Part shown: positions 59,701-62,700 of the stretch, one piece after another
Layout of the letters: every line of letters starts with the position of its first letter
Position numbering within the stretch: position 1 is the first letter of the stretch
Program-made: the position numbers
Assembly (NCBI RefSeq): GCF_003790525.1
Contig: NZ_CP033635.1
Reading direction: 5' to 3' (one strand)
Origin: Escherichia coli
GTDB lineage: Bacteria > Pseudomonadota > Gammaproteobacteria > Enterobacterales > Enterobacteriaceae
Length of the DNA: 64,000 nt

Positions 59701-62700
59701 GGATGTCGGGCAAGTGGTGCTACCTGCTTTTTTACACCAGATCGCGCAACCCTAGTCATGAGTTTCCGTTATCTGACCGATGACCATTTTTGGTTTACGC
59801 TGTTTCATGAGATTGGGCATCTCATCTTGCATGAAGCTGTCCGAGTTCGCGTAGAAGGTAAAGATAGTCTTTCGTCGGAAGAGGAAAAGGAAGCAGATAA
59901 ATTTGCCGTTGATGTTCTTATCCCAGAAGAATACCGGCAGCAACTTAGTCGCTATGGTGTCCGGCATTGGAAAGAGATCATCCGGTTAGCTAGGAAAATG
60001 GGGGTATCCAAAGGGATCGTACTGGGATATTTGCAGCATGAAGGTAATATACCTTTTTCTCACCTTAATCGGTTTAAAGTGAGATTCCGTAAAGAAGATA
60101 TCGTCTGATATCAGCCGCCGAAATAGACATAACGGTCAGGTGATTTCTGCCAGTTGCACAACGCATCTTCAATAACCTGCATTCTCAAGTAGGGTGCAGG
60201 AATAATTGCCGCAAGGTCAGCTAGTTTTTCATTCAATACGTCTATTGTGTCACCAGCAGTCCGGCTATTGCTGAAAAGTAGCCGGCTTCCTTGAAGGGGC
60301 CCGGTTGCTCCATTCAGAAAAGCATGACCCGGCTCTACATCCAGAAGTCCCGTTTTCTTGAGCATAGTTAGGTAATCAAATTTTGCGGTTCGTCCAAATG
60401 AGATCACGGCATTTAGCCCTGAATACAATAGTTCGAATAAAGATTCTGGTGAAGATGAAAAGCTCTTGGCCTCTGCAAACCTAGCCTCATGACTGTGTGT
60501 AGCACCAATGAATCCGATGTAAGAGCGAAAAACCGCAGGTATTGAACGACGAGAGTGATATTTCTTCGTTTCATATTTCCGATGGTTACCATATTGTCTT
60601 AGGCTACTGTTAGCTGTCAACTCATCAGAGACGCTGGCGAACCATTGTTCAAAAGCAGCAAAGTCATCAGTTATCGTATCCCATGTCCACGTTTGTGTAC
60701 CGAGTCCACTGTATATATCTCGACACAAAATCCAGCCGGTTTTGTTACTCTTGCCGAAATGTGTGGCAAGGAAAACCAGCCAGCAGGCTTCATCGTAATT
60801 GTTGTCACGAAGATAAAGGCAGGCAGCGCGGAGAGGATCAAAAACATCAGAATTCGGCTCTTTTCGTAACGGAGTCATATAATCGGTCCGTAATGCAAGA
60901 GTTTCCACATAGCGTATACGACGTATACTGTCGATAATCTGACAGGCTAAAACATCAAAGCAGGCAGGAGAACTTAGGCCATTTAGGTTGTGTTCATTGC
61001 GGCTAAAATTTTGCAAATTACTAACCAGCTGACTGATTTGATTATGTCTTTTCATTGTAGTCTTCCTTCAAAAATAAACCGATATTCCTGATTTTTCATT
61101 GCAGCCAACTCTTGGAAGGCTAGTCCTTTGTGGTTGGGTGTATGTGAACGTAACAAAAAGTGGATTTTTAATATACGCAATAAATCCTTCCAGTAGTCAT
61201 TCAAGGAAGTAGTGTCAATATCAAATTCCTTATTCTCTCGAAGAGCTTTTTCTGCCTCAAGCAGGGGTAAGATATCATCTAAGGAATGCATTTCAGGCAT
61301 CGATCCCATGACTGGTAGGGTGCTCATGAACCCCTCTTTCTGAAGAGCCTTCACTTTTTCTAAATCATTTTTATAGAGATGTAGGCTGGATACAAAGTGA
61401 TGATAGTGACCCAATTCGCATCCTATCAAGCGGGCAACTAATTCCTGTAGCATCGTGAACGCAAATACATCATGAGGCAGCCCCATAAAGGCATCGTTAG
61501 AACGCATACAAACAAATAGATGCAGCTCTTCACATCTGACAATAAACTGCATAGATATTGTACAAGGAATATCTACGTATTCTCGCTGTTCAGTTTTTGA
61601 GGGCACCAAGTCTGAGGCATCGAAAAGCTGTATTACTGCACGTCTGGTAGGTTTTTTCTCCTGCAAAAGGTTGATAACATTTTTTAGCTGATTATATAAA
61701 CCACGCATATTAAACAACCGTGGCCCGTAACCACCATGTATTTTCCCATCTGACTCAGCGGATTCAGCGTAACGTGGTATGAAGTGTTTTATAAACTCAA
61801 GATCGTTCTGAGCTGAGAGATACCACAGAAATTCACCTAAGCAACTAATTAGTTTTCCTCGGGATTCTGTTCTACTTATTCTTCGGCGGGGGTCGGTAAG
61901 GACAAGATAGGCACCAAGAATCTCTAGAGTTGATCCTTTTGTAGGATCGTTACTGAGTCCATCCGCTAGGATAGCTTGATGAACATCGTTTATCAGATCG
62001 TCAACACACTCAGCCGTTACCAAAAGAGTCATTTTCTACCTTTTCCTGTATGGTAGTAACTAATCATTACCACCTGTATGGCATATAGTCAATATAGTAT
62101 CAATATCAACATGGTTCACAGGGTAAGTAAGACTTGATCTTACCCAGCAATAGTGGACACGCGGCTAAGTGAGTAAACTCTCAGTCAGAGGTGACTCACA
62201 TGACAAAAACAGTATCAACCAGTAAAAACCCCGTAAACAGCATTCGCCTGAATTTCTCAGTGAAGCCCTGAAACTTGCTGAACGCATCGGTGTTGCTGCC
62301 GCAGCCCGTGAACTCAGCCTGTATGAATCACAGCTCTATGCGTGGCGCAGCAAACTGCAGCAACAAATGAGTTCGTCAGAGCGTGAAAGTGAACTGGCCG
62401 CTGAAAATGCCTGCCTGAAGCGGCAACTGGCGGAGCAGGCAGAGGAACTGGCTATCCTCCAAAAGGCCGCGACATACTTTGCGAATCGTCTGAAATGAAG
62501 TATGTCTTTATTGAAAAACATCAGGCTGAGTTCAGCATCAAAGCAATGTGCCGCGTGCTCCGGGTGGCCCGCAGCGGCTGGTATACGTGGTGTCAGCGGC
62601 GGACAAGGATAAGCACGCGTCAGCAGTTCCGCCAACACTGCGACAGCGTTGTCCTCGCGGCTTTTACCCGGTCAAAACAGCGTTACGGTGCCCCACGCCT

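What the first reader, a model, noticed from the sequence alone, without database searches (positions are those of the whole stretch)
60111..62032. Thymidylate-synthase-fold enzyme translationally coupled to an unknown 314-aa protein inside a defence-type island
The 326-aa protein aligns with ThyA across the catalytic core, including the Cys nucleophile region, but is about 60 residues longer and is clearly not the housekeeping thyA. Its stop overlaps the start of a 314-aa gene with no recognisable motif. ThyA-fold paralogs in phages act as dNMP hydroxymethylases that start DNA base hypermodification, and I have a weak, unverified recollection that their partners can be thymine pyrophosphorylase-type enzymes. 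A chromosomal copy next to restriction-modification and toxin-antitoxin genes suggests nucleotide modification or depletion.
Basis: partly seen in the sequence, partly recalled or inferred. Interest (0 to 1): 0.75.

Follow-up and report, generated by a model that had tools for sequence, protein, structure and literature searches.

The report
Four-gene cytosine-hydroxymethylase defence-like cassette
The two overlapping genes are real, but they are half of a conserved four-gene mobile cassette that probably defends bacteria against phages by chemically altering deoxycytidine nucleotides; the enzyme families are already named and the cassette has been predicted to be defensive but never tested.

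Summary
The two ORFs exist as described: 61052..62032 and 60111..61055, minus strand, with an ATGA overlap. The 314-aa partner is not motif-less.

The 326-aa protein keeps every thymidylate-synthase catalytic residue. It carries Asp188, Ser178 and Arg130, the signature of a dCMP hydroxymethylase. This points to cytosine, not thymine.

Across 80 genome loci and 24 IMG/VR loci from many phyla, the pair always sits tail-to-tail with two more genes. These are an Xre-HTH/ImmA-IrrE peptidase (a PD-lambda-2B homologue) and an unannotated 108-aa HigB-fold protein. About 40% of loci insert a UDG-fold glycosylase-like gene. No kinase is ever present.

The cassette sits in a defence island in E. coli. 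In one P2-like phage contig it sits where P2 carries old/tin.

DefensePredictor (Science 2026) lists this exact thymidylate-synthase-like protein as a predicted, untested defence gene.

Best reading: a toxin-antitoxin-gated, nucleotide-modifying anti-phage cassette. The chemistry is inferred from residues. The final target, DNA or the nucleotide pool, is unresolved.

This is a new variant of a known kind, of moderate to high interest.

The parts
61052..62032 (-). Thymidylate-synthase-fold enzyme, predicted dCMP 5-hydroxymethylase (326 aa; identical to WP_000174035.1).
   Evidence: Pfam PF00303 at 6e-25. The best solved relative is MilA, a CMP hydroxymethylase, at 1.6e-41 over residues 26-304, including the helical C-terminal extension. 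E67, Y102, R130, R131, C157, R177, S178, D180, H218 and Y220 correspond to TS E58, Y94, R126', R127', C146, R166, S167, D169, H207 and Y209. D188 sits at the TS N177 position. Of these, R131 varies across the family (R/K/Q) and was not tabulated; R130 is Arg in 64 and Lys in 9 of 73; E67 is Glu in 72 of 73 with one gap; the others are identical in all 73 orthologues. Typing rules come from PMC5175136. Sequence identity to the RefSeq protein was checked.
60111..61055 (-). aGPT-Pplase clade 3 / amino-acid:DNA-transferase-family protein (314 aa; identical to WP_000820616.1), translationally coupled to the hydroxymethylase.
   Evidence: Pfam aGPT-Pplase3 at 5.5e-90 and ADDT at 1.1e-58. H158, R159, R222, E296, D297, C300, N301, W302, Q303 and K304 are invariant in 74 orthologues. 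The motif MQVlEDALCNWQK aligns with IQEVETVLCKWK of the characterised M6 gp51, whose Cys and neighbouring Glu are essential (PMC8989533). There is no sequence match to any solved structure.
59026..60108 (+). Xre/HigA-like HTH fused to an ImmA/IrrE-type zinc metallopeptidase (360 aa; WP_000637419.1). It is convergent with the Pplase3 gene, with stop codons 2 nt apart.
   Evidence: PADLOC PD-Lambda-2_B at 8.7e-30, with weaker hits to capP, RmrA and Lit. NCBIfam HigA antitoxin matches residues 15-75. H261-E262-x-x-H265 is invariant in 78 orthologues. The gene is present in 79 of 80 genome loci, always convergent, with stops mostly between -11 and +10 nt apart.
58703..59029 (+). Unannotated 108-aa HigB/RelE-fold protein (TTG start), overlapping the peptidase gene by ATGA.
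   Evidence: Conserved in 77 of 80 loci. The AlphaFold2 model has pLDDT 94.6. Foldseek top hits are P. vulgaris HigB (TM 0.70-0.76 normalised to the target), then YoeB, YafQ and RelE. It has no Pfam, PADLOC or NCBIfam match. It is not annotated in the identical RefSeq locus. Only C14 and W93 are at least 95% conserved.
62063..62092 (-). Promoter-like site (TTGACT, 18 nt, AATGAT) about 30 nt upstream of the hydroxymethylase start.
   Evidence: Consensus scan. The element is conserved in Enterobacter L002 and IMG/VR L091, and TTGACT is also present in the P2-like L087. This is only a consensus match; function was not shown.
58660..58677 (.). Perfect palindrome TTGCTA-taaacg-TAGCAA upstream of the HigB-fold ORF. 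It is a candidate operator for the Xre HTH.
   Evidence: Read from the sequence. Conserved in L091, and in L002 with one mismatch. This is an inference only.
58293..58601 (-). MazG-like small protein. It is a lineage-specific neighbour and possibly an accessory; membership in the cassette is uncertain.
   Evidence: RefSeq calls it 'MazG-like family protein'. It matches phrog_24212 at 3.8e-37. It accompanies the cassette only in E. coli and Enterobacter.

Best explanation
The finding is half of a four-gene, horizontally mobile cassette. The gene order is HigB-fold protein -> Xre-HTH/ImmA-IrrE peptidase, converging on Pplase3 <- dCMP-hydroxymethylase. I think it is a toxin-antitoxin-gated anti-phage system that works by modifying deoxycytidine nucleotides.

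Steps:
1. Shown by homology and residues. The TS-fold enzyme uses Cys157 and methylene-tetrahydrofolate to convert dCMP into 5-hydroxymethyl-dCMP. Asp188 selects cytosine. Ser178 and Arg130 select deoxyribose.
2. Inferred from the family. The translationally coupled clade-3 aGPT-Pplase attacks C6 of the 5-hydroxymethyl-pyrimidine with Cys300, assisted by Glu296. This generates an exocyclic C5 methylene, to which it transfers a nucleophile such as an amino acid or amine. Unlike its phage relatives, it would do this without prior phosphorylation, because no kinase is ever present.
3. Inferred. The result is a dead-end or toxic hypermodified dC species, either in replicating DNA or in the dCMP pool. 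That pool is fed when phages degrade host DNA. Phage DNA synthesis is blocked. In about 40% of loci a UDG-fold glycosylase-like protein with a TDG/SMUG-type Asn motif adds a DNA-base-excision step, which tilts me slightly towards a DNA-level end point.
4. Inferred by analogy with PD-lambda-2. The HigB-fold and Xre-peptidase pair is the switch that keeps the module silent or neutralised until infection.

Rough likelihoods: anti-phage role about 0.65; dCMP hydroxymethylase activity about 0.75; C5-methylene group transfer by the partner about 0.5; DNA-level versus pool-level target about even.
For: Gene linkage:
- The TS-like gene is directly upstream, on the same strand, in 76 of 80 genome loci. 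Three of the four exceptions are contig ends. It is also present in 24 of 24 IMG/VR loci.
- The peptidase is present in 79 of 80 loci and the small protein in 77 of 80, across Proteobacteria, Bacteroidota, Chloroflexota, Acidobacteriota, Planctomycetota, Actinomycetota, Verrucomicrobiota and Myxococcota.

Catalytic residues:
- The sets are invariant across the families.
- dCMP typing comes from alignment to E. coli ThyA and T4 gp42, using the experimentally derived MilA rules.
- The Cys/Glu motif is shared with the characterised M6 gp51.

Links to defence:
- The peptidase is a PD-lambda-2B homologue at 8.7e-30.
- PD-lambda-2 is a validated abortive-infection system with the same HigB-like plus Xre-peptidase pair, in which B is toxic and A neutralises it.
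- The small protein has a HigB fold.
- The UDG-fold accessory gives only UdgX, TDG, family-4 UDG and SMUG1 in its top 50 PDB hits.
- The E. coli island holds a type I R-M system plus four PADLOC hits.
- In the P2-like contig L087 the cassette lies between portal/terminase and gene A. P2 carries the anti-phage genes tin and old at that position.
- Other copies lie next to a terminase, a tape-measure protein, a P1-type gene, a PDC-S06 hit and a type IV REase-like gene.
- DefensePredictor lists WP_000174035.1 as 'Predicted novel defense gene' with log-odds 7.6. It also validated a different system containing a TS-like gene, DS-4.

Foreign origin:
- GC content is 43% against 51% in the core genome. 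The block is IS-bounded and present in 233 of 5426 complete E. coli genomes.
Against: - There is no experiment on this cassette. It is absent from the tested tables of DefensePredictor, and that paper says aGPT-Pplase systems were not validated.
- PADLOC has no model for the TS-like, Pplase3 or small proteins.
- Outside E. coli the immediate flanks are mostly housekeeping or unknown genes. Of 20 sampled flanking ORFs, 7 were housekeeping, 3 were integrase/transposase, and only 1 gave a weak PADLOC hit. Defence-island association is therefore not general.
- Characterised clade-2 relatives need a phosphorylated substrate made by 5-HMUDK, and no kinase is present here. The proposed kinase-independent chemistry is unprecedented for the family.
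- From my own recollection of T4 gene 1 genetics and of E. coli genome-recoding work, hm-dCMP needs a dedicated dNMP kinase to reach DNA. That argues against the DNA-level version in E. coli.
- Equivalence of Cys300 to the clade-2 catalytic Cys rests on a motif alignment with a weak score (E = 0.03).
Confidence: 0.5

Rival explanations
1. The cassette hypermodifies the DNA of its own carrier (prophage, phage-plasmid or island) as a protective or epigenetic mark. This is the job its phage relatives do. The TA-like pair would be only an addiction or regulatory add-on.
For: - All characterised aGPT-Pplase relatives build hypermodified bases in phage DNA to evade restriction.
- Copies occur in P2-like, P1-like and other prophage contigs.
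- A type I R-M system lies 3 kb away in E. coli.
- The UDG-fold accessory could edit DNA.
Against: - tblastn found no clade-3 homologue in 50,697 sequenced phage genomes.
- Many copies sit between housekeeping genes.
- The cassette lacks the dCTPase, dNMP kinase and 5-HMUDK that such pathways need.
- Linkage to a PD-lambda-2A/B-like pair is strict at 79 of 80 loci, which is typical of inducible abortive systems rather than constitutive modification.
- In the P2-like phage it occupies the lysogenic-conversion slot, not the replication module.
Confidence: 0.17
2. The pair makes a free modified pyrimidine or nucleoside-type small molecule, as MilA/MilB and BcmA/BcmB do for mildiomycin and bacimethrin. 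The glycosylase-like partner would release or derivatise 5-hydroxymethylcytosine.
For: - The closest solved relative of the TS-like protein is MilA, including its distinctive helical C-terminal extension.
- In those pathways a hydroxymethylase is followed by an N-glycosidase.
- The partner family is described as having a DNA-glycosylase-like fold.
Against: - The ribose-preference residues of MilA and BcmA (Ala176, Lys133) are replaced here by Ser178 and Arg130, the deoxyribose pattern. Ser is invariant in 73 of 73 orthologues.
- No methyltransferase, kinase, transporter or other biosynthetic gene is conserved nearby.
- The conserved partners are a TA-like pair and, optionally, a UDG-fold protein.
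Confidence: 0.07
3. The HigB-fold/Xre-peptidase pair is a selfish addiction module. The hydroxymethylase-Pplase3 pair is unrelated metabolic cargo, for example nucleotide salvage or detoxification, that merely hitch-hikes with it.
For: - Xre-peptidase plus upstream toxin-like gene pairs are widespread TA-like loci.
- The cassette is small, mobile and often next to integrases or IS elements.
Against: - The two operons stay together, convergent and abutting, in essentially every locus across at least eight phyla. Independent hitch-hiking would not preserve this.
- No housekeeping role is known for either enzyme family.
Confidence: 0.08

Closest known systems
Phage thymidine-hypermodification pathway (dUMP hydroxymethylase -> 5-HMUDK kinase -> clade-2 aGPT-Pplase / amino-acid:DNA transferase; phages M6, ViI, PaMx11, PhiW-14; PMC8989533)
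   Same: A TS-fold pyrimidine hydroxymethylase is paired with an aGPT-Pplase/ADDT-family protein. The E-x-x-x-C motif that is essential in M6 gp51 is shared.
   Different: - The clade here is 3, not 2.
- The hydroxymethylase is cytosine-type (Asp188), not uracil-type.
- There is no 5-HMUDK kinase and no PLP, radical-SAM or FAD tailoring enzyme.
- It was not found in any of 50,697 deposited phage genomes.
- It is always linked to a TA-like pair.
PD-lambda-2 (Vassallo et al. 2022, PMC9519451): HigB-like A, Xre-HTH-peptidase B, P4-antitoxin-related C; abortive infection
   Same: The 360-aa protein matches the PD-Lambda-2_B model at 8.7e-30 over residues 15-341. The upstream small protein has a HigB fold and the same gene order with an overlapping stop and start.
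   Different: - The small protein does not match the PD-Lambda-2_A model.
- There is no C component.
- Instead, a convergent hydroxymethylase-Pplase3 operon is the invariant third element.
DS-4 of DefensePredictor (Science 2026, PMC13092281): TS-like + adenylate-kinase-like + HMUDK_hel + TIR + Nmad2; experimentally validated in E. coli
   Same: It is a bacterial defence system built around a TS-fold protein. DS-4A is 29% identical to this protein (E = 1e-28). It also includes a protein from the phage DNA-hypermodification toolkit.
   Different: - DS-4A has Asn at the TS N177 position, the uracil type.
- DS-4 includes kinase, TIR and Nmad2 genes that are absent here.
- DS-4C is HMUDK_hel and is not detectably related to Pplase3.
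- DS-4 has no HigB/Xre-peptidase pair.
T4 gp42 dCMP hydroxymethylase and Streptomyces MilA CMP hydroxymethylase
   Same: It shares the Asp / Ser / Arg substrate signature with T4 gp42. It shares overall sequence and the helical C-terminal extension with MilA.
   Different: - It is only 22% identical to gp42.
- It lacks MilA's Ala176/Lys133 ribose signature.
- It is encoded in a bacterial mobile cassette, not in a virulent phage or an antibiotic gene cluster.

Membership tests
Thymidylate synthase / pyrimidine hydroxymethylase superfamily (PF00303) | Significant match to the family profile | tested here: met
   Pfam 6e-25, residues 58-232. PHROG 'thymidylate synthase' families at 1.6e-43.
Thymidylate synthase / pyrimidine hydroxymethylase superfamily (PF00303) | Catalytic Cys nucleophile plus phosphate- and sugar-binding residues (TS E58, Y94, R126', R127', C146, R166, D169, H207, Y209) | tested here: met
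   All are present in the window protein (E67, Y102, R130, R131, C157, R177, D180, H218, Y220). Across 73 orthologues, Y102, C157, R177, D180, H218 and Y220 are invariant, E67 is Glu in 72 with one gap, and R130 is Arg in 64 and Lys in 9. R131 varies in the family (R/K/Q).
Housekeeping ThyA (NCBIfam equivalogs) | Score above the curated equivalog cut-off | tested here: not met
   Best score is 81 bits against a cut-off of 327. Identity to E. coli ThyA is 21%. TS H147 is replaced by Thr and TS N177 by Asp.
dCMP hydroxymethylase functional class (T4 gp42 type) | Asp at the TS Asn177 position (cytosine specificity) | tested here: met
   D188 is invariant in 73 of 73. The rule comes from PMC5175136.
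dCMP hydroxymethylase functional class (T4 gp42 type) | Ser at TS Ser167 and Arg at TS Arg126' (deoxyribose preference) | tested here: met
   S178 is present in 73 of 73. R130 is present in the window protein; across the family it is Arg in 64 and Lys in 9.
dCMP hydroxymethylase functional class (T4 gp42 type) | Formation of 5-hm-dCMP from dCMP and methylene-THF | not testable with these tools
   This needs an enzyme assay.
MilA/BcmA CMP hydroxymethylases (nucleoside-antibiotic pathways) | Ala176 / Lys133 ribose-preference pair | tested here: not met
   The window protein has Ser178 and Arg130 instead, although MilA is the best overall PDB hit at 1.6e-41.
aGPT-Pplase / amino-acid:DNA transferase family (PF18746, PF18724) | Significant match to the family profiles | tested here: met
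   aGPT-Pplase3 at 5.5e-90 over model positions 4-278 of 279. ADDT at 1.1e-58.
aGPT-Pplase / amino-acid:DNA transferase family (PF18746, PF18724) | Essential Cys with a neighbouring Glu | tested here: met
   E296 and C300 are invariant in 74 of 74. They align with the E...C of M6 gp51 and gp55. The pairwise score is weak (E = 0.01-0.03), so the equivalence holds at motif level only.
aGPT-Pplase / amino-acid:DNA transferase family (PF18746, PF18724) | Co-occurrence with a 5-hmdU DNA kinase (5-HMUDK) that supplies the phosphorylated substrate | tested here: not met
   Neighbourhood clustering of 80 loci finds no recurrent kinase. The only recurrent genes are TS-like, the peptidase, the small protein, the UDG-fold protein and two small unknowns.
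aGPT-Pplase / amino-acid:DNA transferase family (PF18746, PF18724) | Transfer of an amino acid or amine to C5-methylene of a pyrimidine in DNA | not testable with these tools
   This needs biochemistry. No structure could be predicted within the remaining caps, and no solved homologue exists.
PD-lambda-2 defence system | Component B: Xre HTH fused to a C-terminal peptidase | tested here: met
   PD-Lambda-2_B at 8.7e-30. HExxH is invariant.
PD-lambda-2 defence system | Component A: HigB-like protein encoded immediately upstream | tested here: inconclusive
   The HigB fold is supported by AF2 and Foldseek, and the gene order is the same. There is no match to the PD-Lambda-2_A HMM.
PD-lambda-2 defence system | Component C: P4-antitoxin-related protein required for defence | tested here: not met
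   None of the five cassette or neighbouring proteins matches any PD-Lambda-2 model other than B. No such gene is conserved.
DS-4 (DefensePredictor) | TS-like + dNMP-kinase-like + HMUDK_hel + TIR + Nmad2 gene set | tested here: not met
   Only the TS-like component is shared, at 29% identity. The others are absent. DS-4C is not related to Pplase3.
UDG superfamily (optional ~270-aa gene of related loci; absent from the window) | UDG alpha/beta fold | tested here: met
   The AF2 model has pLDDT 92.7. All top 50 PDB Foldseek hits are UdgX, TDG, family-4 UDG, UNG or SMUG1, with 12 at E <= 1e-3, the best at 1.7e-4 and the weakest listed at 7e-3. There is no sequence-level Pfam or PDB hit.

The most novel reading that the evidence does not exclude
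The clade-3 aGPT-Pplase would be the first cytosine-directed, kinase-independent member of the amino-acid:DNA-transferase family. It would act on 5-hydroxymethyl-dC, as a nucleotide or in DNA, made by a host-encoded dCMP hydroxymethylase. Bacteria would then defend themselves by deliberately hypermodifying ('poisoning') deoxycytidine during infection. That is the phages' own DNA-hypermodification chemistry turned against them, under control of a HigB-fold/Xre-peptidase switch.
Probability: 0.3. Interest if true: 0.85.

Novelty: new variant of a known kind. Interest (0 to 1): 0.62.

Why it matters
If the reading is right, a widespread mobile cassette uses pyrimidine hydroxymethylation plus C5-methylene group transfer as an immune mechanism. 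It occurs in at least 217 of about 100,000 species representatives, in eight or more phyla, and in 4% of complete E. coli genomes.

This would extend nucleotide-centred immunity (dCTP deaminase, dGTPase, DS-4) to cytosine hypermodification.

It would also give biochemists a kinase-independent relative of the amino-acid:DNA transferases, and possibly a new natural modified base.

Finally, it would show that the PD-lambda-2A/B-type HigB/Xre-peptidase pair is a reusable switch coupled to different effectors.

The locus is in E. coli and only 3.4 kb long, so it can be tested directly.

Tried and rejected
1. Sequence searches of PDB for the Pplase3, UDG-like and small proteins gave nothing significant. 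Pfam gave nothing for the small and UDG-like families. Structure prediction was needed instead.
2. I suspected DS-4C ('DNA base hypermodification protein') was a Pplase3 relative because of look-alike motifs. hhalign gave E = 0.78 and Pfam assigns it to HMUDK_hel, so I rejected this.
3. The CCATACAGG direct repeats flanking the -10 element upstream of the TS-like gene looked like an operator. They are not conserved in Enterobacter or IMG/VR relatives, so I dropped them.
4. I tested whether defence-island association is general. It is not supported in 20 sampled flanks.
5. I checked whether a MazG-like pyrophosphatase is a recurrent accessory. A ~125-aa family upstream of the small gene occurs in 10 alphaproteobacterial loci. 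It gives only weak hints: PDB 'pyrophosphatase' 4qgp at E = 0.011, and hhalign to the window MazG-like protein at E = 0.013 over 14 columns. This is inconclusive.
6. Iyer et al. 2013 and Burroughs et al. 2015, which defined these domains, are not in the held library. I could not check what they say about clade 3.
7. Literature searches for an experimental study of this cassette found none.
8. Both structure-prediction jobs went to the two unidentified proteins, so the Pplase3 fold was not modelled.
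Full report
**Observation.** The ORF list shows two minus-strand ORFs at exactly the reported coordinates: 61052..62032 (326 aa) and 60111..61055 (314 aa). The junction reads ...CTA CAA TGA AAA..., so the upstream stop and the downstream ATG share ATGA. A GAAGGAAG stretch lies 8-9 nt before the ATG.

The 326-aa protein matches Pfam Thymidylat_synt at 6e-25. 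It reaches only 81 bits against NCBIfam ThyA equivalogs whose cut-offs are 325 bits or more. It is 21% identical to E. coli ThyA.

One sub-claim fails. The 314-aa protein is not without recognisable motifs. It matches Pfam aGPT-Pplase3 at 5.5e-90 and ADDT at 1.1e-58. RefSeq already names it 'alpha-glutamyl/putrescinyl thymine pyrophosphorylase clade 3 protein' in at least one E. coli genome.

**Typing the hydroxymethylase.** The best solved relative is not ThyA (E = 1e-11 to 1e-18) but MilA, the CMP 5-hydroxymethylase of mildiomycin biosynthesis. The match is at 1.6e-41 over residues 26-304, including the helical C-terminal extension that explains the extra ~60 residues.

I aligned the protein with E. 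coli ThyA and T4 gp42, both fetched from annotated records. The window protein keeps these residues:
- E67 (TS E58) and Y102 (Y94)
- R130 and R131 (R126' and R127')
- C157 (C146), R177 (R166), D180 (D169)
- H218 (H207) and Y220 (Y209)

The MilA structural paper gives experimentally supported rules (PMC5175136). Asp at the TS Asn177 position marks cytosine substrates. Ser167 plus Arg126' marks deoxyribose, whereas MilA and BcmA use Ala plus Lys for ribose. The window protein has D188, S178 and R130.

Across 73 orthologues, C157, R177, S178, D180, D188, H218 and Y220 are invariant. R130 is Arg in 64 and Lys in 9. The protein is therefore best typed as a dCMP hydroxymethylase with a MilA-like C-terminal domain. 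It is not a thymine or uracil enzyme.

**The partner.** Characterised clade-2 aGPT-Pplases are amino-acid:DNA transferases. After a 5-hmdU DNA kinase phosphorylates 5-hmdU in DNA, an essential Cys, helped by a neighbouring Glu, attacks C6. Phosphate leaves, and an amino acid adds to the exocyclic methylene (PMC8989533).

The clade-3 family has an invariant block E296-D297-x-x-C300-N-W-Q-K304. In profile comparison this aligns with the VETVLCKWK motif of M6 gp51 and IEHTLCEFDK of gp55. The pairwise scores are weak. Homology itself rests on the Pfam ADDT match.

The family has no sequence relative among solved structures. tblastn found no hit in 50,697 deposited phage genomes.

**The real unit is four genes.** A profile-guided scan of one genome per species found 217 loci, of which 80 were kept, spanning at least eight phyla. 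Clustering all ORFs within 6 kb gave these results:
- The TS-like gene lies directly upstream on the same strand in 76 of 80 loci. Three of the four exceptions are contig ends.
- A ~366-aa protein lies on the opposite strand immediately downstream in 79 of 80.
- A ~111-aa protein lies upstream of that one in 77 of 80.

In the window these two are 59026..60108 (+) and 58703..59029 (+).

The 360-aa protein is an Xre/HigA-like HTH fused to an ImmA/IrrE metallopeptidase, with HExxH invariant. It matches the PADLOC model PD-Lambda-2_B at 8.7e-30.

The 108-aa protein has no profile match. Its AlphaFold2 model (pLDDT 94.6) superposes best on P. vulgaris HigB and other RelE-superfamily toxins. It is not annotated in the identical RefSeq locus.

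PD-lambda-2 is a validated abortive-infection system whose A component is HigB-like and whose B component is this Xre-peptidase fusion. B alone is toxic, A neutralises it, and a third component is needed for defence (PMC9519451).

In the cassette the two operons are always convergent. Their stop codons usually lie between 11 nt of overlap and 10 nt apart, and 2 nt apart in the window. All 24 loci recovered from IMG/VR show the same architecture.

**Optional components.** In 33 of 80 loci a ~270-aa gene is inserted between the hydroxymethylase and Pplase3 genes. It has no Pfam, NCBIfam or PDB sequence hit. Its model (pLDDT 92.7) matches only UDG-superfamily enzymes in the top 50 PDB hits: UdgX, human TDG including 5hmU and 5caC complexes, family-4 UDG and SMUG1. 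It carries an invariant G-L-N-P-S motif. From my own knowledge of UDG motif A, this resembles the GINPG/GMNPG catalytic-Asn motif of MUG/TDG/SMUG1.

No kinase recurs in any neighbourhood. Two small unknown families recur in 14 and 10 loci. The latter gives only weak hints of being MazG-like.

**Context.** In E. coli the block is present in 233 of 5426 complete genomes. It is always chromosomal, at least 99% identical in all but one genome, and bounded by an ISL3 remnant and an IS3 copy. It has 43% GC against 51% in the core part of the window.

It lies in an island downstream of tRNA-Phe. The island also carries a type I R-M system, an AriA/NsnB/PDC-M55A-like ATPase, PDC-M40B, PDC-M09A and a WYL regulator. 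A dGTPase-family gene lies just past the window end.

Elsewhere the flanks are heterogeneous. Of 20 sampled large flanking ORFs, seven are housekeeping, three are integrases or a transposase, and only one gives a weak PADLOC hit. The cassette is therefore a self-contained mobile module rather than an obligate defence-island resident.

Several IMG/VR copies are in genuine phage contexts. In L087 the cassette lies between P2-type scaffold/terminase/portal genes and the gene-A nickase (E = 1e-267) plus Dam. The annotated P2 genome places the lysogenic-conversion anti-phage genes tin and old between gene A and the cos site, beyond which lie the portal and terminase genes. Other copies lie beside a terminase, a tape-measure protein, a P1-type protein with a PDC-S06 hit, and a type IV restriction-like gene.

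**Prior knowledge.** DefensePredictor (Science 2026, PMC13092281) lists WP_000174035.1, which is identical to the window protein, in its table of predicted uncharacterised defence proteins from 3,000 E. coli genomes, with log-odds 7.6. The protein is absent from the tables of tested units.

The paper also highlights an aGPT-Pplase-containing predicted system and states that none of these domains has been validated (legend). It did validate DS-4, a different E. coli system made of TS-like, adenylate-kinase-like, HMUDK_hel, TIR and Nmad2 genes. DS-4A is 29% identical to the window protein but has Asn at the specificity position.

I found no experimental paper on this cassette. I could not read the 2013 and 2015 Aravind-group papers that defined the domains.

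**Mechanism.** The following are shown by homology and residue conservation:
- an intact TS-type active site with the dCMP signature
- an intact AADT-type Cys/Glu motif
- an intact HExxH peptidase with an N-terminal HTH
- a HigB fold
- strict four-gene linkage

The following are inferred:
- The first enzyme makes 5-hm-dCMP.
- The second enzyme activates the 5-hydroxymethyl group by C6 attack and transfers a nucleophile without prior phosphorylation.
- The product corrupts the supply or the polymer of deoxycytidine in replicating phage DNA.
- The HigB-fold/Xre-peptidase pair gates the system, as in PD-lambda-2.

The UDG-fold accessory and the DNA-directed activity of clade-2 relatives favour a DNA-level end point. 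The absence of any dNMP kinase favours a nucleotide-pool sink. My recollection is that T4 gene 1 and E. coli recoding experiments show such a kinase is needed to get hm-dCMP into DNA. I cannot decide between these two end points.

The rivals are less well supported, for the reasons given in their entries. They are self-DNA hypermodification by mobile elements, a MilA-like small-molecule pathway, and an addiction module carrying unrelated cargo.

**Verdict.** The enzyme families are known and the gene has already been flagged by a published predictor, so this is not categorically new.

The new elements are the definition of the four-gene cassette, the cytosine/deoxyribose typing, the kinase-less architecture, the optional UDG-fold gene and the P2 hotspot location. 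Together they make it a distinct and experimentally tractable variant.

Noticed in passing
window 58703..59029 (+): The conserved 108-aa HigB-fold ORF (TTG start) is missing from the RefSeq annotation of the identical E. coli locus (L001). It is nevertheless present in 77 of 80 orthologous loci.
   Followed up: yes
window 58293..58601 (-): A MazG-like small gene (phrog_24212, 3.8e-37) lies divergent from the small ORF. It accompanies the cassette only in E. coli and Enterobacter. A different ~125-aa family at the equivalent position in 10 alphaproteobacterial loci gives weak pyrophosphatase hints (PDB 4qgp, E = 0.011). A dCTP-to-dCMP feeding role is conceivable but unsupported.
   Followed up: partly
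window 58660..58677: A perfect palindrome TTGCTA-taaacg-TAGCAA lies about 25 nt upstream of the HigB-fold ORF. It is conserved in close relatives (L002, L091) and is a candidate Xre operator.
   Followed up: partly
window ~62136..63393 and 57451..57993: An IS3 copy ends about 100 bp upstream of the hydroxymethylase start. An ISL3 transposase remnant lies on the other side. The E. coli block is IS-bounded and clonal, intact in 226 genomes.
   Followed up: partly
window 42664..56874: The island is rich in defence genes: type I R-M (hsdR 53458..56874, hsdM 51760..53394, hsdS 50621..51763); an AriA/NsnB/PDC-M55A-like ATPase at 48990..50612 with an unidentified 313-aa partner at 48094..49035; PDC-M40B at 42664..44235; PDC-M09A at 44282..45361; and a WYL regulator at 45410..46306.
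   Followed up: partly
window 28718..28793 (+): tRNA-Phe (GAA), the likely attachment site of the genomic island that carries the cassette. GC content drops from 51% upstream of it to as low as 31-37% in parts of the island.
   Followed up: no
window ~63512..64000 (cut by the window end): In the identical genome record a dGTPase-family gene begins here (L001 23513..24745). This is another nucleotide-depletion-type defence candidate next to the cassette.
   Followed up: no
L028:7174-7974 and 32 other loci: An optional ~270-aa UDG-fold gene with an invariant GLNPS motif is inserted between the hydroxymethylase and Pplase3 genes. It has no Pfam or NCBIfam family.
   Followed up: yes
L018:5764-6084, L050:6850-7152 and 12 other loci: A ~100-aa family (phrog_4887, function unknown) recurs just upstream of, or just after, the hydroxymethylase gene.
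   Followed up: partly
L089 and L090 (IMGVR_UViG_3300025711_000239, 118 kb): There are two copies of the whole cassette on one contig that also encodes a P1-type 'released upon infection' protein (phrog_1926, 3e-287). This is either a phage-plasmid with a repeat or an assembly concatemer.
   Followed up: no
window 62040..62100 (-): Two CCATACAGG direct repeats bracket the -10-like element upstream of the hydroxymethylase gene. They are specific to the E. coli copy and not conserved in relatives.
   Followed up: yes
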